Shown one piece after another: positions 767-8,550 of a DNA stretch of 12,066 nucleotides. Position 1 is the stretch's first letter, and every line of letters starts with the position of its first letter. Below the pieces are notes generated by a model. The model searched no databases. It worked only from the letters and a program-made list of their open reading frames with translations, and was not told the origin of the DNA. Made by a program: the position numbers and the translations under genes. The DNA is from a virus (Duplodnaviria > Heunggongvirae > Uroviricota > Caudoviricetes). Location of the stretch: the IMG/VR virus record IMGVR_UViG_2531839374_000009, positions 1-12,066 of that record. One strand, written 5' to 3'.

Positions 767-1192
767 ATGATTAATCCGACACTCACCCTCAAAGATAAAG
801 CCCTTGCGGGCGCAATGTTTTTACGCAACTACGCCGCAATGATGGCTGACACTGACAACCCGATGATGGTGCTGTCAGTGGAGCCTCACCTTATCGCCGC
901 AGACGCAATTGAACAGGTGGTACAGGAAAACACCTGTCTGAGAAATCAGCTTGCCACCCTTCAGACAGCAGCTGACCCGGCAAAGGAAAGTGCTGAACAC
1001 ACCTGCCACACCACATTCATCAAAGGGACCCGCGTATGTCTGAAAAACAGTCCGCAGCAACGCGGAACGGTCGTTGACACCCGCACCAGTAGCCCCGCAT
1101 TGACCGGGTTTTTCGTCCGTTTTCGATTTCCCCCCTTCGAGGAAGACCGCTGGGTAAAGACCAGAAACCTGGAAATAACCCCCGACAAATGA
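767..1192 (+). CDS. hypothetical phage protein (141 aa)
   Basis: ATG preceded by AAGGGA; stop overlaps next start (ATGA at 1189-1192). Confidence 0.55.
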   Translation: MINPTLTLKDKALAGAMFLRNYAAMMADTDNPMMVLSVEPHLIAADAIEQVVQENTCLRNQLATLQTAADPAKESAEHTCHTTFIKGTRVCLKNSPQQRGTVVDTRTSSPALTGFFVRFRFPPFEEDRWVKTRNLEITPDK

Positions 1193-1442
1193 AGCTGATT
1201 ATCCCTGCGCGACACCGCAAAAACCGGATGAAGCCAGGGGGAAAGCCGGAGCGGGCAGCAAGGGCGGCATACCGTCGCCTGCTGAAGGGGGACCGGTCAC
1301 ACGTGCGACGGCTGGAGCGGGTACCGCCCGCGTCATCAACGTCATGTACCGTTACCGGCTGTTAAGTCTGGACGAAGGCCGGACATGGGTACTGCTTAAC
1401 CATAACGAATACGTGAAGAGGATAAGACGATGTTACAGATGA
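1189..1442 (+). CDS. small basic hypothetical protein, apparently interrupted by a 1-nt frameshift near the CCC run at 1327-1329
   Basis: ATGA overlap with upstream gene at 1189; frame-1 part ends 1365; protein-like frame-3 continuation (ARVINVMYRYRLLSLDEGRTWVLLNHNEYVKRIRRCYR) ends in an ATGA overlap with the next gene at 1439-1442. Confidence 0.3.
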
Positions 1443-1929
1443 AATTTAAGCCCTGCTTTATTGACGCATTCCGCAACGGACGCAAGACCACATCCCTTCG
1501 CCCGACGGGTTTGATTGCTACCAGGCGGGCCAGGAGTCAGCAGAATATTTTCATGAAGACACCCTGACCCGCAACATCGTTCTTCCCGATTACAGCGCCG
1601 GCGGTACCCTGGTTTTTGAGGAGGGAACCACATTTACCCGCGCATCAGACTTTGCCGGACTCCTGAAAAGACAGCCCTACCGGCAGTATGACAACATTCA
1701 TCTGGTCACAGAAAACAAGAACGGCGAAACCGTGCCGTTCGCCGTGGCCTTCATTGCCGATATCGGTGTAATACAGGGCCGCCAGATAACCGATGAAGTG
1801 GCCGTCAGGGACGGCTTTAACCCTGAAAACCATCCCCGCGACGAACTCTTTGCATTCATGCGGGACACCTGCCACATAGAAAACCCCAAAAACGAACCTA
1901 CTGGCGGTACACCTTCACCCACATCGTGA
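1439..1929 (+). CDS. ASCH (PUA-like) domain protein, interrupted by an apparent 1-nt frameshift near the CCC run at 1501-1503
   Basis: N-terminus MKFKPCFIDAFRNGRKTTSLRP in frame 2 (ASCH-like F..F.d...G.KT.T.R pattern) stops at 1564; long protein-like continuation in frame 1 from ~1504 to stop 1927-1929. Confidence 0.5.
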
Positions 1930-1954
1930 TGTTGTCGCAGTGGAGGGCTGACGC

Positions 1955-2188
1955 ATGAAACCCGCCATTATCTGCATTCTGTGCGAGAGCACTGTCACCG
2001 GCGACCATTACCGCATCAGGGAACGCCACATCAACCCTGACCGTTCGCTGCTGGACAACATCACCGGCCCGGATGATGAACGCGTGATCTGCCTGAACGA
2101 CGGCTCGCAGTTACGCGTGCGCAATATCCGGCGCGAAATCACGCTCGAACCCACCCCATTCACACGCGGGAAAAAAACCGGAGAGTGA
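1955..2188 (+). CDS. hypothetical protein (77 aa)
   Basis: ATG with GGAGGG ~8 nt upstream; stop 3 nt before the dam start. Confidence 0.5.
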   Translation: MKPAIICILCESTVTGDHYRIRERHINPDRSLLDNITGPDDERVICLNDGSQLRVRNIRREITLEPTPFTRGKKTGE

Positions 2189-2191
2189 CGC

Positions 2192-3151
2192 ATGAAAGGT
2201 ATTCTGAACCAGCGCTCACCGCTCAAATGGGCGGGCGGCAAATTCAGTATCATGCCGCAGCTGCGCGAATATTTACCCAAAGCCGCCTGCCTGATCGAAC
2301 CCTTCGTGGGCGGCGGCTCGGTCTTCATGAACACGGATTATGACTATTACGTATTGTGTGACAGCAACCCCGCGCTGATTAATTTCTACCAGCAACTGAC
2401 GACCAACACCACGGAATTAATGGATCGTGCATGGTCGCTCTTTAAGGATGGCGGCACACCGGAAGCCTACAAACGCCATCGCGGGGCATTTAACACCATC
2501 GCGCTGGCCACCGACAGATTACGCGGCGAATCCCTGGAATGGGCAGCGCTGTTTCTGTACCTGAACCGCCATTGCTTTAACGGCCTGTACCGCACCAACC
2601 AAAAAGGCGAATTCAATGTGCCATTCGGCAAACACCGCATGCCTTATTTCCCCTGCCAGGAAATGCGCCTGTTTGCTGATAAAGCCAACGAGACCCAGAC
2701 CCGCTTTATTCACGCGGATTTCCGTACAGCCTTCACAATGCCGGCTGAGATCCGCCGTTTTTCTTCGGTGCACGGCGATATCGCCATTTACTGCGATCCG
2801 CCCTACCTGCCACCGGACGGTAAAGAGGCGTTCACTCACTACAACGGCCGGGCATTTACCCGCAAAGACCACCGTGACCTTGCGGCGCTCATGATGAACG
2901 CCTGGCAGCGTTACGGTATCCACCCGGTGGTCTCCAACAGTGACACCTCCGAAACCCGGCAGATCTATTCCTCGTTTGAGCTGCACACCCTGAGCGTTCG
3001 CCGCGCTGTGGCTGCCAGCAGCAGTGCACGCCAGCAGGCAAAAGAGGTGATTGGTGTTTATCCGCCAGCCCGTGAGGTCCGGATCCGGGATGTCAATGCG
3101 GGCTGGCTGTCTCACATTCCCGCTCCACACCCCACCACGGAGATCATGTAA
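2192..3151 (+). CDS. dam: DNA adenine (N6) methyltransferase, Dam family (alpha-class MTase)
   Basis: Motifs LKWAGGK, EPFVGGGSVF (SAM-binding FxGxG), LFLYLNRHCFNGLYRTN..GEFNVPFG and catalytic DPPY in Dam order; GGAGAG RBS; 319 aa. Confidence 0.9.
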   Translation: MKGILNQRSPLKWAGGKFSIMPQLREYLPKAACLIEPFVGGGSVFMNTDYDYYVLCDSNPALINFYQQLTTNTTELMDRAWSLFKDGGTPEAYKRHRGAFNTIALATDRLRGESLEWAALFLYLNRHCFNGLYRTNQKGEFNVPFGKHRMPYFPCQEMRLFADKANETQTRFIHADFRTAFTMPAEIRRFSSVHGDIAIYCDPPYLPPDGKEAFTHYNGRAFTRKDHRDLAALMMNAWQRYGIHPVVSNSDTSETRQIYSSFELHTLSVRRAVAASSSARQQAKEVIGVYPPAREVRIRDVNAGWLSHIPAPHPTTEIM

Positions 3152-3463
3152 TGGCCGTTATCTATATCGCTGGCCCCATGACGGGGAAGCCTGATTTCAA
3201 CCGCACCGCCTTCACCATGACGGCGACCCGCCTGAGGATGCAGGGTCATACCGTACTCAACCCCGGCAACACTCCCTGACGGGCTGAGATACAGGGACTA
3301 CATGCTTATCGGGAGCGCCATGCTGCACTGTGCCGATGTGATTTACCTGCTGGATGGCTGGGAGGACTCGCCGGGGGCAAAAGAGGAACACGCCACCGCC
3401 CTGAAACTGAATCTGATCATCTCCACACCAGAAAGCCGTAAGGAGGCCAAATCATGTTTCTGA
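3151..3463 (+). CDS. DUF4406-like (nucleoside 2-deoxyribosyltransferase-like) protein, interrupted by an apparent 1-nt insertion in the CCCC run at 3261-3264
   Basis: MAVIYIAGPMTGKPDFNRTAF...GHTVLNP in frame 1 (stop 3277-3279) continues in frame 2 as ..LPDGLRYRDYMLIGSAMLHCADVIYLLDGWEDSPGAKEEH.. (GWE.S.GA..E motif); TAATG overlap with dam stop. Confidence 0.55.
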
Positions 3464-4007
3464 AACCAATGGGGGGACCAGGTAAAGCACCGAAGCACGT
3501 CAGTGCCTGGACACAACAGGAAGACGAACTGCTTATCTCGCTTTATCAGGATCACAGCACATGGCAAATGGCTGAACGACTTCAGCGAACCCGCAGCGCA
3601 GTGATGCACCGGATTCTTTTTTACGTAATCGCGGGTTGATTGGTCGCAAGAGAAAAGCACCGCTGAGTGCAGAAGCCATCGCCTTTCTCACCAAAAACCG
3701 TCACGCAAAAACCGCACGGGAACTGGCCCGGAAGGTGGGACGCAGCGAGTGCACCGTGAGGTACACACTGCATAAACGGGGTTACAGCCTTAAGAAATGC
3801 GGCGAGAGCCACCATTGTGCCAGATACAGCGATCGTCTGACTGAGCTGGTTACGGAGCTACGCGACAGACGCAACATGACGTTCTGCATGATCGCGAAAC
3901 ACATCAACATCACGATGCAAATGCACATCAGCGATGATACGGCGTTTCACCTCTACAACCGCCGGACCGCCGCCGACGCCCTGTTGTACGAACTGCTGCC
4001 GAACTGA
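3454..4007 (+). CDS. putative DNA-binding protein with two HTH/Myb-like repeats, interrupted by an apparent 1-nt deletion in the T6 run at 3617-3622
   Basis: Strong AGGAGG RBS 8 nt upstream of ATG 3454; frame-1 part ends 3637-3639, frame 3 continues directly (..MHRILF / LRNRGLIGRKRKAPLSAEAIAFL..); repeat units WTQQEDELLISLY..WQMAERLQRTRSAV and LSAEAIAFL..AKTARELARKVGRSECTV. Confidence 0.45.
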
Positions 4008-4106
4008 GTGATCATCATGCACACACAAAAAAACCGCTTGCCATGCCGCAATCAGTCAGGTTACATTTCTGCTGCACCTCATAAAACGGGTGCCGGGATT
4101 GAGACC

Positions 4107-4148
4107 CCGCTGACAAACGTAGCGCACAACCGCGCCAGCGGTTTTTTT
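4107..4148 (+). terminator. candidate intrinsic terminator (GC-rich hairpin followed by T7)
   Basis: CCGCTG (4107-4112) pairs with CAGCGG (4136-4141); inner GCGC/GCGC stem; TTTTTTT at 4142-4148; ~100 nt downstream of stop at 4007. Confidence 0.35.
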
Positions 4149-4327
4149 GTGCGTACCGTATCGTCACACCTTTTTCGCATCAGAATTATGGTGGGGCGTA
4201 CAGGGCCGACTTCGGTCGGGCCGGGTTCTGCGTTTGCCGGTAGTCTCAACCCTGTACGTCTCACCACCCCGAGTTTGAGACCTCTGGATGGTGAGTTTTC
4301 AAAACTTACACACGTAGAGGCCACACC

Positions 4328-4558
4328 ATGGCAAACCGCAAACAACAGCGCGCATACGCTGCGCGTCGTCACATCCAGACTGAAATCAACCGCAGACTTT
4401 TCCGCGCCTTCCGCGTCGCGCATATCATGCACATCAATATGCTGCATGAGCGCAGTCACGCACTGTCAAACACCTATTCCGCCGCTGTTTTCAGCTATCT
4501 GGCGGATGATCTGCGCGGGCTTCAGCAGCTCATCCAGCAGCAAAACAAACTCCATTAA
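4328..4558 (+). CDS. hypothetical phage protein (76 aa)
   Basis: ATG with AGAGG upstream; basic helical sequence; lies upstream of the replication gene. Confidence 0.5.
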   Translation: MANRKQQRAYAARRHIQTEINRRLFRAFRVAHIMHINMLHERSHALSNTYSAAVFSYLADDLRGLQQLIQQQNKLH

Positions 4559-4630
4559 TTACGGTACCAGGTCTCTCCTGCACTTTGCGGCGGGAGGCCT
4601 TCGCACATCTTTAACAAAGCGAGGTGCAGC

Positions 4631-5020
4631 ATGATTGACCGTCATGACTTCGTAAAATGGGTGCGCACACAGGACACCCGTCTGGCTCCAAAACTTCAGG
4701 CAATGCTTGATTTCTATCTCCGTGCCCGTGCCAGCCAGGCACGCACCACAAAACCGGAGAACGCAGGCCCCCTTTATTTCATCGTGGACGACTGCTACCG
4801 CGTGGACTTCACACCACACGGTCTGGCCCTGTACACCCTGACGCCACACGGCAACTCCCTGCTGGCGTATTACAACTCCCCGGTCTCCTTATTTGCAGCG
4901 ATGCTGACGCATCGCACTGCTGGCGGCTGCGCTTCCCTGAGTGAATACACCACTGAGTTTAACCGCCTTTCTGCCCTCTTCTCGCAGGAGTGGCAACGCG
5001 TAACGGGATACCAGCCATGA
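4631..5020 (+). CDS. hypothetical phage protein (129 aa), translationally coupled to the replication gene
   Basis: GAGGTG RBS; stop TGA 5018-5020 overlaps ATG 5017 of the next gene. Confidence 0.55.
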   Translation: MIDRHDFVKWVRTQDTRLAPKLQAMLDFYLRARASQARTTKPENAGPLYFIVDDCYRVDFTPHGLALYTLTPHGNSLLAYYNSPVSLFAAMLTHRTAGGCASLSEYTTEFNRLSALFSQEWQRVTGYQP

Positions 5021-7509
5021 GTGAGTTTGCATGGAGCTGGAATGAACCGCAGCCAGCTATTAATCCGGATGACTTCGCGAACTTCAGCCGGTTGCCAAAA
5101 ACCGGACTGCAACACGTCATCCGTTACTACTTTGAGGCGGACAAAAAGGCCCGGGAAGAACAGGAAGCGAAGGAGGAAGCCTTTTTCGCACAATCCGATA
5201 CAGGTAAAAAACTCATGGCATCCCTTGAGGAAGCCGGGCAACGCGAAAGACTGATAAAAAACATCATCAGTAAACGCCAGGAAATAAAGCAAGACCCGGT
5301 GGCCCGTGCCTTTGCCACATTAAAGGCACTACCTGTTTATCTGCGTGAACCACTGAGCCGCCGCCTCTCTTTTTTGCGTAAGAAGCAGGAATCTGACCGC
5401 CAGAAAGGCAAAAAGAGTCGACCAGCAGAGGGCTACGCGCGCAGAACCCTGCGCAAAATATTCAAACGTCTGAAACGCACTGACGGACGCTGGCTGACAC
5501 CGGGTTATTGCTCCCTTGCCGGACGTGAACGCCTGGACGATTTGCTGTACCTGCCGCAGCTCAACAAACACCAGATACAGACGCTGGCCACCATGACGGC
5601 GGCAATGTTCAGCAGCACCTTCGAGACACTCTGCGATGGCTTTGGCGCCAGAGATGGCGAGCTGACCATGGAGGTGGCGCTGAAGGCATATCAGATGCTG
5701 GCACGCATGGCGCTACATCTGCACACCATGCCTCCACATTATGACGCACTGACAACAGACAAAGACCGGAAGAACGAACCGGACACGGAGCTGCTGCCGG
5801 GCGCAATCCTTCGCCTGACCTGTGCGGAATGGTGGAAACGCAAACTGTGGCTGTTACGTTGCGAGTGGCGGGAAGAACAACTCCGCGCCGCCTGTCTGGT
5901 TTCCAGAAAAACATCGCCCTATCTGAGCCAGGACGCGTTGAGCGAGTTTCGCGCACAGCGCGAGAAAACACGCGATTTCCTGAAAAGTTTCATGCTGGAA
6001 AACGAAGACGGGTTCACGATTGATCTCGAGACAGTGTATTACGCGGGAGTAAGTAACCCGGTTCACCGTAAGGCAGAAATGATGGCCACCATGAAAGGGG
6101 CGGAACTTATAGCCGAATCCCGTGGCGACAAAGCGGTGTTTCTGACTGTCACCTGCCCGTCAAAATACCACGCAACAACGGAGAACGGTCATCCGAACCC
6201 CAAATGGAACGGGGCTACCATGCGCGATTCCAGTGATTATCTGGTTAACACTTTTTTTAAAGCCGTTCGTAACAGACTGGACCGCAAGGGCCTGCGCTGG
6301 TATGGCATCCGCACGGTGGAGCCTCACCATGACGGCACCGTGCACTGGCATATGATGGTCTTTGCACATCCTGAAGAAATCGACAGCATCGTGACCATCG
6401 CCCGCGATATTGCCATTCGTGAAGACCGCCACGAGCTGGGCGATGACATAACTCCGCGCTTTAAGGCGGAGTACGTCGACGGTTCGAAAGGTACGCCGAC
6501 CAGCTACATCGCCACCTACATCGGAAAGAACCTGGACAGCCACTCCGTGGATGGCATTGACCCGAAAACAGGCAAACCGCGCATCGACGACGAATCAGGA
6601 AAGACGATGGCAGAAAGCGTGGAACGCGCCATCGGCTGGGCGCGCCTTCACCGGGTCCGCCAGTTCCAGTTCTTTGGCATCCCCTCCCGTCAGGTATGGC
6701 GTGAACTGCGCCGCCTTGCCAGCCAGATGGCACGCAACCCGGAAGGTCCGCAACGGCTGAAGGATGACGCAATGGATGCGGTTCTTGCTGCCGCTGATGC
6801 CGGATGTTTTGCCACCTACATAGAGAAACAGGGCGGCGTACTTGTTCCACGCAAAGACTACCTGATTCGCACCGCCTACGACCTCGCAGATGAGCTGAAC
6901 GATTACGGCGAACAGAGCGTACAGATTTACGGGATCTGGTCGCCACTCATCGGGGAATCCTCCCGTGTGTGCACGCACCCGGATAACTGGAAGCTGGTAA
7001 GACGTAAACCGGAAGCGGAAGACAGCACCCACGAAAATGGTTTTGACCTTCAGGGCGGCCCTGCCGCCCCTTGGACTCGTGGCAATAACTGTCCCGGCGA
7101 CGAAAAAACAGCCGGAACCGGCACAGAAAACAGGCAGCAGGAGAAACGTCTGACACTTCCGGAAAATGGCCTGACACAATGGTTGCAGGGATTGAGCCAT
7201 TACGAGCGGAAACAGCTCATCAGACAGCTTAAAAATCAGCCGCCCGCCACGGATACCGGACAAAATAACACCAGACCAGCATCAGACACCCCTGTCAGGG
7301 TGGAGGTTGTCGTGCCTGTCGACACCACGACCATCGCACAAATCACCCGCGAACTCGACGCGCTGGGTGTGCAGCTGCCTGACGCAGCCATTATTTCCGT
7401 GAGTAACGGTGCCCGCGTTCGCCCGGGCGACGGGCGTATCGCGTACTGGAGCGCCACAACCCGCCGCATCGTCATCACACAGGAGTCGTCAGCGGAGGTA
7501 AGATCATGA
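5017..7509 (+). CDS. rolling-circle replication initiator (HUH endonuclease), P2 gene A-like
   Basis: HUH motif in TVHWHMMVFAHPEE; tyrosine motif YIATYIGKNLD (Y-x3-Y-x2-K); ~830 aa; alternative GTG start at 4990. Confidence 0.85.
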   Translation: MSEFAWSWNEPQPAINPDDFANFSRLPKTGLQHVIRYYFEADKKAREEQEAKEEAFFAQSDTGKKLMASLEEAGQRERLIKNIISKRQEIKQDPVARAFATLKALPVYLREPLSRRLSFLRKKQESDRQKGKKSRPAEGYARRTLRKIFKRLKRTDGRWLTPGYCSLAGRERLDDLLYLPQLNKHQIQTLATMTAAMFSSTFETLCDGFGARDGELTMEVALKAYQMLARMALHLHTMPPHYDALTTDKDRKNEPDTELLPGAILRLTCAEWWKRKLWLLRCEWREEQLRAACLVSRKTSPYLSQDALSEFRAQREKTRDFLKSFMLENEDGFTIDLETVYYAGVSNPVHRKAEMMATMKGAELIAESRGDKAVFLTVTCPSKYHATTENGHPNPKWNGATMRDSSDYLVNTFFKAVRNRLDRKGLRWYGIRTVEPHHDGTVHWHMMVFAHPEEIDSIVTIARDIAIREDRHELGDDITPRFKAEYVDGSKGTPTSYIATYIGKNLDSHSVDGIDPKTGKPRIDDESGKTMAESVERAIGWARLHRVRQFQFFGIPSRQVWRELRRLASQMARNPEGPQRLKDDAMDAVLAAADAGCFATYIEKQGGVLVPRKDYLIRTAYDLADELNDYGEQSVQIYGIWSPLIGESSRVCTHPDNWKLVRRKPEAEDSTHENGFDLQGGPAAPWTRGNNCPGDEKTAGTGTENRQQEKRLTLPENGLTQWLQGLSHYERKQLIRQLKNQPPATDTGQNNTRPASDTPVRVEVVVPVDTTTIAQITRELDALGVQLPDAAIISVSNGARVRPGDGRIAYWSATTRRIVITQESSAEVRS

Positions 7510-7937
7510 CGCGATTTCACTGCACCATGCAGCGTCAGCAGTTCGACGCCGTTATGCGCCAGCGCACGCCAGCCATGACACTGAGAGGCGTAGCCACAAG
7601 ACCACAGCCCGGGGACGAACTGGAAATCACGGTGGCCAGCCCCGATCGCACCACCACAACCACCATCACCGACATACTTAACAGGCGACCGGGCAGTGAA
7701 TATCAGAGCTGGATAGTTGCCGTTCGTCCGCGCCGTTCACCGGAAGAGCCGGAACCACTCACGCCGGCCGGGAAAATCATGCAGAAGTACCACGAAGAGC
7801 AGACCCGCAAACACAATGTCGCGCTGGCCAGAACGCTGACTGCCGTCAATCGCAAGGCCGCACTGACGCAAAGGGTCTTTTTACCGCAGCGCCATTCATG
7901 CGCCAGACCGGCACAACACAGGAGAGATTCACAATGA
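7506..7937 (+). CDS. hypothetical protein downstream of gene A (positional analogue of P2 orf91)
   Basis: ATGA overlap with gene A stop (7506-7509) and with next gene (7934-7937); C-terminal half is low-complexity, possible undetected frameshift. Confidence 0.4.
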   Translation: MTRFHCTMQRQQFDAVMRQRTPAMTLRGVATRPQPGDELEITVASPDRTTTTTITDILNRRPGSEYQSWIVAVRPRRSPEEPEPLTPAGKIMQKYHEEQTRKHNVALARTLTAVNRKAALTQRVFLPQRHSCARPAQHRRDSQ

Positions 7938-8266
7938 GAGAGCAATTACCAGGCACCGTGCCAGCGCAGGAAATCAAAGAAAGTATCAGGCAACAACTTC
8001 ACGGATTTTATATTACTTATGATTTGTGGCTGAAAAACGGAGCAAATCCAGGCAGAATATTTTCGCGAAACTGTGGTTTATGCGCCAGCCTCTGGGATTA
8101 TCTCGAATTAACGGGTGCTGATAAAGAAACAGTACTGGAGCAATTACACGCTGATTTCAGAAGTGCCGGGCTGAATGAGGTGTTACCGTTTAACGAGAAC
8201 AAAGCTCATTACCATGCAGAAAAAAGACACAACATGTGCCATATGAATCCGGCGCGGATTGCATAG
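7934..8266 (+). CDS. hypothetical protein (~110 aa), first gene of the lower-GC cargo island
   Basis: ATG with CAGGAGAG RBS; clear GC drop relative to gene A; no motif recognised; alternative ATG at 7898. Confidence 0.5.
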   Translation: MREQLPGTVPAQEIKESIRQQLHGFYITYDLWLKNGANPGRIFSRNCGLCASLWDYLELTGADKETVLEQLHADFRSAGLNEVLPFNENKAHYHAEKRHNMCHMNPARIA

Positions 8267-8375
8267 GTCAGGGCGCAAACAGGGCAGAACGCCCACGCCA
8301 CAGCCAGTACCAACCGCACAGATAACCAGTCAGATGGCCGGAAATATCCGGGCGTTATTTCCTGAGTAAGCAGAG

Positions 8376-8396
8376 CCAGGGCGGAAACCGCCCTGG
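8376..8396. repeat. perfect 9-bp inverted repeat with 3-nt loop (CCAGGGCGG aaa CCGCCCTGG)
   Basis: Read directly from sequence; an adjacent 7-bp inverted repeat GGAAATA-N9-TATTTCC lies at 8340-8362; neither has a flanking T-tract. Confidence 0.6.
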
Positions 8397-8468
8397 ATGT
8401 AATCAGCAGAGAGTGTGAACCCACACCACATCACACTCCATGAAATTTGCATAATTTAATTATGATTT

Positions 8469-8497
8469 TTGCAACTCTCCATTCATAATGTTAGTAA
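8469..8497 (+). promoter_or_regulatory. candidate sigma70 promoter for the HTH-peptidase gene
   Basis: -35 TTGCAA (8469-8474), 17-nt spacer, -10 TAGTAA (8492-8497); AT-rich; ~50 nt upstream of ATG 8551 with AGGTGA RBS. Confidence 0.25.
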
Positions 8498-8550
8498 TAA
8501 TTAACCAATCTAAACCCATAAGAGCCACCATTGTTAAATTCAGGTGACGT

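What the first reader, a model, noticed from the sequence alone, without database searches (positions are those of the whole stretch)
7934..8266. Orphan low-GC ORF at the start of the cargo island
A ~110-aa protein with a strong RBS and ATGA coupling to the upstream gene, but with much lower GC than the replication module and no motif I can recognise. It sits where P2-like phages carry tin-type genes, so it could be an independent defence or anti-defence factor, or a third component of the downstream pair.
Basis: partly seen in the sequence, partly recalled or inferred. Interest (0 to 1): 0.45.

Follow-up and report, generated by a model that had tools for sequence, protein, structure and literature searches.

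The report
Truncated orphan phage accessory gene
The ORF is a real gene, but it is a nonsense-truncated and probably inactive copy of a small, uncharacterised protein family found almost only in phages (phage N4 gp3 is a member); it sits in the variable hotspot of a decaying P2-like prophage and is unrelated to the HTH-peptidase/PIN pair beside it.

Summary
ATG 7934 overlaps the TGA of the upstream 143-aa gene, AGGAG lies 9 nt upstream, and GC is 0.44 against 0.56-0.59 in the replication genes.

The ORF belongs to a phage-restricted ~105-aa all-helical domain family (PHROG 6418/2510). The family has 306 clusters in an exhaustive search and no Pfam, NCBIfam, PADLOC or PDB relative. Members are mostly early-region genes of virulent phages (N4 gp3, Phapecoctavirus, T1-like). 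Others are modules in lambdoid and P1-like prophage proteins.

It is not a third component of the HTH-peptidase/PIN pair. Among complete E. coli genomes, 28 of the 32 with the pair lack the ORF, and 27 of the 31 with the family lack the pair.

The window copy ends on TAG where 93 of 96 relatives have Trp, and homology continues 20 nt past the stop. About half of the last conserved helix is lost. Sister prophages carry other lesions: IS600 insertion, deletion, and dN/dS ~1. The portal gene here is cut by an IS110-family element.

Best reading: a decaying remnant of a horizontally acquired early accessory gene. Its family function is unknown. I guess host-takeover or anti-defence acting through a conserved Cys/Arg-centred site, and this is not shown.

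The parts
7506..7937 (+). Upstream 143-aa backbone gene (orf143, PHROG 14984, unknown function). Its stop overlaps the ORF's start. It is the positional equivalent of P2 orf91 but unrelated in sequence.
   Evidence: GC 0.59
7920..7924 (+). Shine-Dalgarno AGGAG, 9 nt before ATG 7934.
   Evidence: read directly from the sequence
7934..8266 (+). The 110-aa ORF, identical to WP_001209127.1. It is a member of the N4 gp3-like / PHROG 6418-2510 domain family and ends on an amber codon.
7934..7965 (+). Lineage-specific 5' extension (MREQLPGTVPA) that gives translational coupling. Lambdoid relatives start at the codon that corresponds to residue 11.
7966..8286 (+). Segment homologous (80-83% nt identity) to the family gene of lambdoid prophages and a P1-like phage-plasmid. 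The homology runs 20 nt beyond the stop codon.
8231..8233 (.). AAC target site where IS600 is inserted in four otherwise identical E. coli prophages. The IS is absent in the window.
8264..8266 (+). TAG in place of TGG. The lost Trp111 is W in 93 of 96 diverse relatives. It is a substitution shared by independent assemblies, so it is real.
8267..8286 (+). Post-stop remnant that still encodes VRAQTG(Q), the continuation of the family's terminal helix.
8287..8369 (+). 3' remnant of a ParR-like 'plasmid partitioning/stability' gene. It is in the +1 frame relative to the ORF and marks the left end of the separately acquired cargo block 8277-10242.
8551..10203 (+). Neighbouring HTH-M78 peptidase (8551-9695) and PIN (9652-10203) genes. 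These are context only and not part of the finding.

Best explanation
ORF 7934-8266 is a decaying copy of a horizontally acquired phage accessory gene.

**Origin.** A low-GC gene of a phage-restricted family was captured at the end of the early (replication) operon of a P2-like phage and fused to a new coupled start. The family is a ~105-aa five-helix domain and phage N4 gp3 is a member.

**Later events.**
- Microhomology recombination at about 8286/8287 replaced its native C-terminal tail with the 3' end of a ParR-like gene. That recombination brought in the HTH-M78 peptidase/PIN block.
- A TGG-to-TAG change then cut the protein inside its last conserved helix.

**State of this copy (inferred).** It is probably inactive or impaired, and it sits in a defective prophage.

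**Family mechanism (inferred, not shown).** The protein is an early-expressed, cytoplasmic, mostly acidic factor made for the phage's benefit. It would act in host takeover or counter-defence. It would act through a conserved site built from three inter-helix loops, around invariant C50, P85-F86 and R108 with N105, E96 and H103. That site would bind a conserved host ligand or protein.
For: **Shown: family and distribution.**
- PHROG 6418/2510 matches; 306 clusters in the exhaustive search, mostly standalone proteins of 100-110 aa.
- 219 phage records match, mainly Phapecoctavirus, N4-like and T1-like phages, with up to 4 copies per genome.
- In N4-like phages the gene is in the left-end early region.
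- Only 1 of 72,556 plasmids has it, and that one is a P1-like phage-plasmid.

**Shown: independence from the pair.** Pair in 32 genomes, family in 31, overlap 4.

**Shown: mosaic structure and junction.**

**Shown: truncation.**
- TAG stands where W is 93/96 and the next residue V is 87/96.
- The terminal helix spans residues 106-116 in a full-length relative, so 6 of its 11 residues are lost.
- The TAG is shared by L001, L009 and many assemblies.

**Shown: decay in the lineage.**
- IS600 insertion.
- Deletion of 8172-10269.
- Only 4 of about 225 contigs of this lineage keep the Trp.
- dN/dS is 0.97 within the lineage, against 0.34 for orf143 and 0.26-0.29 against lambdoid copies.
- The portal gene is cut by an IS110-family element.

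**Inferred.** The functional site is inferred from conservation concentrated in the loops 43-50, 79-87 and 102-108. Median pI of the family is 5.7.
Against: - AF2 still models the 110-aa form with pLDDT 94.5. This is driven by the alignment, but it does not show misfolding.
- The good SD and ATGA coupling are intact, so a truncated product could be made and might keep activity.
- The dN/dS of about 1 rests on only 14 substitutions.
- No experiment or annotated relative speaks to function. All named relatives are 'hypothetical'.
- I could not read model coordinates, so the convergence of the conserved loops into one site is unverified.
- H103 (84%) and C102 (57%) are not invariant, which weakens a Cys-His catalytic reading or a zinc-site reading.
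Confidence: 0.68

Rival explanations
1. The 110-aa product is a functional anti-defence or host-takeover factor as it stands. Losing the last half-helix is tolerated.
For: - Start, SD and coupling are intact.
- All invariant residues C50, P85, F86 and R108 are retained.
- The AF2 model is confident.
- The amber allele is found in S. flexneri, S. boydii and E. coli.
Against: - W111 and V112 are 96% and 90% conserved, and no other family member examined ends before them.
- Further lesions accumulate on top of the amber allele, such as IS600 downstream of an already amber copy.
- dN/dS is about 1 in the lineage.
- The prophage is defective.
Confidence: 0.2
2. It is a third component (sensor or regulator) of the downstream HTH-M78 peptidase/PIN module.
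For: Adjacency, same strand, and similar low GC of 0.44.
Against: - 28 of the 32 E. coli genomes with the pair lack it. They have ParM plus a ParR-like gene upstream instead.
- 27 of the 31 genomes with the family lack the pair.
- A ParR-gene remnant and a recombination joint lie between the ORF and the pair.
- Family members in virulent phages have no such neighbours.
Confidence: 0.03
3. It is a Tin-like lysogenic-conversion (superinfection-exclusion) gene that protects the lysogen.
For: Its location in the P2 gpA-gpQ hotspot, where defence genes concentrate (PMC9122126).
Against: - No similarity to Tin and no PADLOC hit.
- It is co-directional with and coupled to the early lytic operon. No promoter-like site was found on the + strand in 7300-8700 (weak evidence). 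P2 tin/old, by contrast, have their own promoter on the other strand.
- Most family members are in virulent phages.
Confidence: 0.07
4. It is a chance ORF or a non-coding region.
For: None beyond its small size.
Against: Strong profile matches, hundreds of homologues, and purifying selection across the family.
Confidence: 0.01

Closest known systems
PHROG 6418 / PHROG 2510 (unknown function), which include homologues annotated as phage N4 gp3 and phAPEC8_0041
   Same: - Significant profile match over residues 9-110.
- Same motifs: FY..Y..W, GLC.N, PFN, (C)H.N..R.
- Same predicted helical fold.
- Standalone size of about 100-110 aa.
   Different: - The window copy lacks the terminal W-V-x-x-(H/R)-hydrophobic half-helix because of an amber codon.
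- It has a lineage-specific 11-residue N-terminus.
- It sits in a temperate P2-like prophage, not in the early region of a virulent phage.
Family copies in lambdoid and P1-like prophages (for example WP_021527609.1, 158 aa)
   Same: 80-83% nucleotide identity and about 75% amino-acid identity over 7966-8286. These resemble the likely donor type.
   Different: They carry variable C-terminal tails or extra modules: DUF551 (PF04448), a Cys-rich tail, and dATP/dGTP pyrophosphohydrolase. The window copy lost its tail to the ParR-remnant junction.
P2 Tin (and Old), the lysogenic-conversion genes of the same hotspot
   Same: The same gpA-to-gpQ interval of a P2-like genome.
   Different: - No sequence similarity (BLASTP E 0.48).
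- 110 aa against 252 aa.
- Opposite transcriptional arrangement.
- The family is mostly in virulent phages.
P2 Orf91 (DUF3850)
   Same: Same kind of position: a small gene on the same strand as gene A, at the tail of the early operon.
   Different: No sequence similarity (no alignment at E <= 100). The direct positional equivalent of Orf91 is orf143, not this ORF.
Small early phage anti-defence or host-takeover proteins in general (functional analogy only)
   Same: - Small, acidic, early-region, and patchily distributed by horizontal transfer.
- Multi-copy or tandem expansions.
- Phage-restricted.
   Different: - No homology to any characterised example was found.
- The strong conservation of polar residues across hosts from Rhizobium to Escherichia is unusual for strain-specific inhibitors.

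Membership tests
N4 gp3-like domain (PHROG 6418/2510) | Significant profile or sequence match across the domain | tested here: met
   PHROG 6418 E 3.8e-31 and PHROG 2510 E 1.2e-27. 306 clusters by exhaustive phmmer.
N4 gp3-like domain (PHROG 6418/2510) | Conserved residues L22, F25, Y26, W32, G36, G48-L49-C50, F75, P85-F86, N105 and R108 | tested here: met
   All are present in the window protein.
N4 gp3-like domain (PHROG 6418/2510) | Complete terminal helix with W111-V112 (W in 93/96, V in 87/96) | tested here: not met
   TAG replaces the Trp codon. The helix spans 106-116 in the full-length relative. It is therefore a truncated member.
N4 gp3-like domain (PHROG 6418/2510) | Five-helix all-alpha fold | tested here: met
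   AF2 pLDDT 94.5 and pTM 0.83. BFVD hits are to uncharacterised phage proteins with TM 0.7-0.77. This is a prediction only.
P2 Tin | Sequence similarity to Tin | tested here: not met
   BLASTP E 0.48 over 42 residues.
P2 Tin | Expressed in the lysogen from its own promoter and excludes T-even phages | not testable with these tools
   The arrangement differs from P2. No promoter-like site was found (weak evidence).
Component of the HTH-M78 peptidase/PIN module | Consistent co-occurrence with the pair | tested here: not met
   Overlap in 4 genomes only, out of 32 with the pair and 31 with the family.
Known anti-phage defence proteins (PADLOC-DB v2) | Match to any defence HMM | tested here: not met
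   0 families at E <= 0.1.
Core gene of P2-like phages | Presence across P2-like prophages whatever their cargo | tested here: not met
   The orf143+ORF lineage is in 6 of 5426 E. coli genomes. It is absent from P2 itself and from the ParM-type prophages.

The most novel reading that the evidence does not exclude
The family (N4 gp3, the Phapecoctavirus paralogues, modules of lambdoid proteins) would be a new class of phage early effector. It has a fold without solved relatives and a conserved Cys/Arg-centred pocket. It could be a small enzyme, or a sponge or binder for a conserved host molecule, used for counter-defence or host takeover. Even then, the window copy would only be a broken example of it.
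Probability: 0.3. Interest if true: 0.55.

Novelty: new member of a known kind. Interest (0 to 1): 0.25.

Why it matters
**This locus.** It matters little. The ORF is a recombination and decay remnant in a defective prophage. This fits the published picture that P2 hotspots swap cargo quickly and leave small pseudogene scars (PMC13586616). It should not be counted as part of the neighbouring candidate toxin-antitoxin or defence pair.

**The family.** It is more interesting than this copy.
- It is a widespread, phage-restricted domain that often occurs in several copies in early regions.
- It has a confident predicted fold, no solved or annotated relative, and an invariant Cys and Arg.
- Phage N4 offers a tractable model through gp3.
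- It is a reasonable candidate for screens of host-takeover or anti-defence functions.

Tried and rejected
**Searches that gave no annotated relative.**
- Pfam, NCBIfam, PADLOC, and PDB sequence searches with the single protein and with a 97-sequence profile.
- BFVD returned only uncharacterised phage proteins. The afdb50 library was unavailable.
- Word-indexed homologue searches returned only 'hypothetical' names.

**Fusion partners.** The fused modules have only PHROGs of unknown function, plus DUF551, a dATP/dGTP pyrophosphohydrolase and DUF7415. None is informative about mechanism.

**Literature.** Searches for N4 gp3, the PHROG ids and the accessions found nothing on function.

**Collection scans.** The related-loci scan with the diverse alignment failed, and the genome-contig scan found no relative.

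**An error I corrected.** I first read as showing the pair in more than 480 genomes. One search corrected this to 32.

**Readings considered and dropped.**
- A zinc site or a Cys-His dyad is not supported, because C102 (57%) and H103 (84%) are not invariant.

**Frameshifts in neighbouring genes.** These are probably sequencing artefacts, so I did not use them as evidence of decay. The window differs from a complete genome by 12 single-base indels and 4 substitutions.

Full report
**Observation.** The ORF at 7934-8266 (+) is as described. ATG 7934-7936 overlaps the TGA (7935-7937) of the upstream 143-aa ORF (7506-7937). AGGAG lies at 7920-7924. The product is 110 aa. GC is 0.441 (GC3 0.432), against 0.56 for gpA and 0.59 for orf143 (profile). 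The window is the early region of a P2-like prophage. In order it holds a Dam methylase, the gpA replication endonuclease (PF05840, E 4e-129), orf143, this ORF, an HTH-M78 peptidase gene, a PIN gene, an Ogr/Delta zinc-finger gene and the portal gene. The ORF therefore lies in the gpA-to-gpQ interval, which Rousset et al. defined as the P2 defence hotspot (PMC9122126).

**It is a real gene of a phage-restricted family.**
- There is no Pfam, NCBIfam, PADLOC or PDB sequence match.
- It matches PHROG 6418 (E 3.8e-31) and PHROG 2510 (E 1.2e-27), both of unknown function.
- tblastn finds it in 141 phage records at E <= 1e-5 and 219 at E <= 1e-2. These are mostly Phapecoctavirus and other large virulent myoviruses, with up to 4 places per genome. 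They also include N4-like podoviruses of Escherichia, Erwinia, Achromobacter and Klebsiella, T1-like siphoviruses, Rhizobium phages and a Xanthomonas jumbo phage.
- In an N4-type genome the homologue is annotated as N4 gp3 and sits at 501-815 of the left-end early region. In an Achromobacter N4-like phage it lies upstream of the early RNA-polymerase genes.
- An exhaustive HMMER search of 1.84 billion representatives gives 306 clusters at E <= 1e-3. Most are standalone proteins of 100-110 aa. Some have two or three tandem copies, and some are embedded in longer modular prophage proteins.
- Only one of 72,556 plasmids has it, and that one is a P1-like phage-plasmid.
- Every name attached to a relative is 'hypothetical'.
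- Fusion partners are DUF551 (PF04448), a dATP/dGTP pyrophosphohydrolase with DUF7415, a Cys-rich tail, and PHROGs of unknown function.

**Structure.**
- With a 97-sequence alignment, AF2 gives pLDDT 94.5 and pTM 0.83. The model is all-helical: H11-34, H49-60, H64-77, H90-98 and H106-109.
- BFVD returns only uncharacterised phage proteins.
- Over 97 diverse representatives, C50, P85, F86 and R108 are invariant. L22, F25, Y26, W32, G36, G48, L49, F75 and N105 are at least 90% conserved. E96 is 90%, H103 84%, N87 84% and C102 57%.
- The conserved polar residues cluster in the inter-helix loops 43-50, 79-87 and 102-108. I read this as one functional site. I could not inspect coordinates, so this is inference.
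- The family is mostly acidic, with a median pI of 5.7.

**The window copy is truncated by a nonsense codon.**
- Close relatives continue ...NPARVAW-VRAQTGQ... past the point where the window has ...NPARIA-TAG-VRAQTGQ.
- blastn homology to the lambdoid copies runs from 7966 to 8286, which is 20 nt past the stop.
- The lost Trp is W in 93 of 96 representatives, and the next residue is V in 87 of 96.
- In a full-length relative the terminal helix corresponds to window residues 106-116 and is modelled at high confidence. Six of its eleven residues are therefore missing.
- The TAG is a substitution. It is present in a complete E. coli genome, in an IMG/VR contig, and in WP_001209127.1 from S. flexneri, S. 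boydii and E. coli assemblies. It is not a sequencing error.
- Versions of 143-144 aa that keep the Trp exist, but only on 4 contigs.

**Mosaic history.**
- The window segment 7966-8286 is the family module. Codons 1-11 are a lineage-specific start that provides the coupling.
- The segment 8277-10242 matches, at about 98%, the hotspot of a different P2-like prophage type. That prophage carries ParM, a ParR-like 'partitioning/stability' gene, the HTH-M78 peptidase and PIN between gpA and the portal gene.
- The joint lies at about 8286/8287 in a short stretch of microhomology. The last ~80 nt of the ParR-like gene remain, in the +1 frame.
- The ORF's native tail was therefore replaced when the pair arrived, and the amber mutation came later.

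**Independence from the pair.**
- The pair (8400-10240) is in 32 of 5426 complete E. coli genomes. Four are this prophage, and 28 have the ParM/ParR context and no ORF (which corrects my first reading).
- The ORF family is in 31 genomes, and 27 of them lack the pair. Two are the same prophage type with the ORF cut to 82 aa and followed directly by ogr. About 25 are lambdoid prophages or the P1-like plasmid.
- The 'third component' idea is therefore rejected.

**Decay in this lineage.**
- The orf143+ORF lineage is in only 6 complete E. coli genomes.
- In four of these, IS600 sits at AAC 8231-8233, inside a copy that is already amber.
- In the other two, 8172-10269 is missing.
- In the protein collection, the amber form is on about 25 contigs, forms cut at or near the IS600 site on about 140, the 82-aa form on 56, and Trp-retaining forms on 4.
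- dN/dS between the window and the cargo-less sister is 0.97 (11 non-synonymous and 3 synonymous changes). For the adjacent orf143 it is 0.34, and against the lambdoid copies it is 0.26-0.29. The counts are small.
- The window's portal gene is interrupted at about 11440-11448 by an IS110-family (ISEc20-like) element, so the prophage is defective.
- I do not use the frameshifts in neighbouring genes as evidence. The window differs from the complete genome by 12 single-base indels and only 4 substitutions, which looks like homopolymer sequencing error.

**Mechanism.**
- Shown: the anatomy and history above.
- Inferred for expression: the ORF is on the same strand as gene A and coupled to it and to orf143. 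No promoter-like site was found on its strand in 7300-8700 (a weak test). In P2, tin and old are on the opposite strand with their own transcript, and orf91 is the coupled gene. The ORF would therefore be made with the early lytic operon, not in the lysogen.
- Inferred for function: early-region placement in virulent phages, restriction to phages, and multi-copy or tandem expansion together point to a phage-benefit early factor (host takeover or counter-defence). I give this about 50%, and about 30% that it defines a truly new effector class.
- A Cys-His catalytic dyad or a zinc site is not well supported, because H103 and C102 are not invariant.
- A Tin-like defence role is unlikely. There is no similarity to Tin or Orf91 and no PADLOC hit.

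**Verdict.** This matches the recent finding that P2 defence loci are littered with small pseudogene scars of recombination, mostly from genes of unknown function (PMC13586616). Interest is low for the locus and moderate for the family.

Noticed in passing
window 8551-10203: The HTH-M78 (ImmA/IrrE-type) peptidase plus PIN pair gives PADLOC hits to RmrA models (E down to 8.5e-22) and to PDC-S70 (E 5e-4). It is in 32 complete E. coli genomes, usually downstream of ParM and a ParR-like gene in the P2 gpA-portal hotspot. It is a candidate toxin-antitoxin or defence module in its own right.
   Followed up: partly
window 8840: A one-base deletion (A5 instead of A6) splits the HTH-M78 gene into 8551-9015 and 8880-9695. 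The gene is an intact 381 aa in E. coli CFSAN029787. It is probably a homopolymer sequencing error, because the window shows 12 single-base indels against 4 substitutions relative to that genome.
   Followed up: partly
window 1098-3616 and 11360: Other single-base indels relative to the complete genome split further genes, for example the 184-aa DNA-binding protein at 3453-4007 and the portal gene at 11360. The same caveat about sequence quality applies.
   Followed up: partly
window 4074-4271: There are Rfam hits above the gathering score to isrK (4074-4148, 67 bits) and to C4 antisense RNA (4184-4271, 82 bits). This is a P1/P7-type antisense immunity element inside a P2-like early region. 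The mechanical 208-aa ORF over it (4008-4634) is probably spurious.
   Followed up: no
window ~11440-12066: An IS110-family (ISEc20-like) element, 99% identical to copies in more than 1,400 E. coli genomes, interrupts the 5' part of the portal gene. The prophage is therefore defective.
   Followed up: partly
window 8231-8233; L001 9835-11098: Four E. coli genomes (CFSAN029787, RMDEC332, RMDEC364, VL46) carry the same prophage with IS600 inserted in this ORF. The insertion has a 3-bp AAC duplication.
   Followed up: yes
L040 3501-3776 (Escherichia phage SusanneMuster_Bas79): The family homologue on the + strand is not annotated. An opposite-strand ORF (Bas79_0090) is annotated over it instead, which is probably a mis-call.
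   Followed up: no
P0074, P0054, P0044 and similar proteins: Some phage proteins consist of two or three tandem copies of the domain. Phapecoctavirus genomes hold up to four separate copies.
   Followed up: partly
window 7506-7937: orf143 (PHROG 14984, unknown function) is coupled to gpA by another ATGA overlap. It occupies the position of P2 orf91 without any similarity to it. It is found in only 6 complete E. coli genomes.
   Followed up: partly
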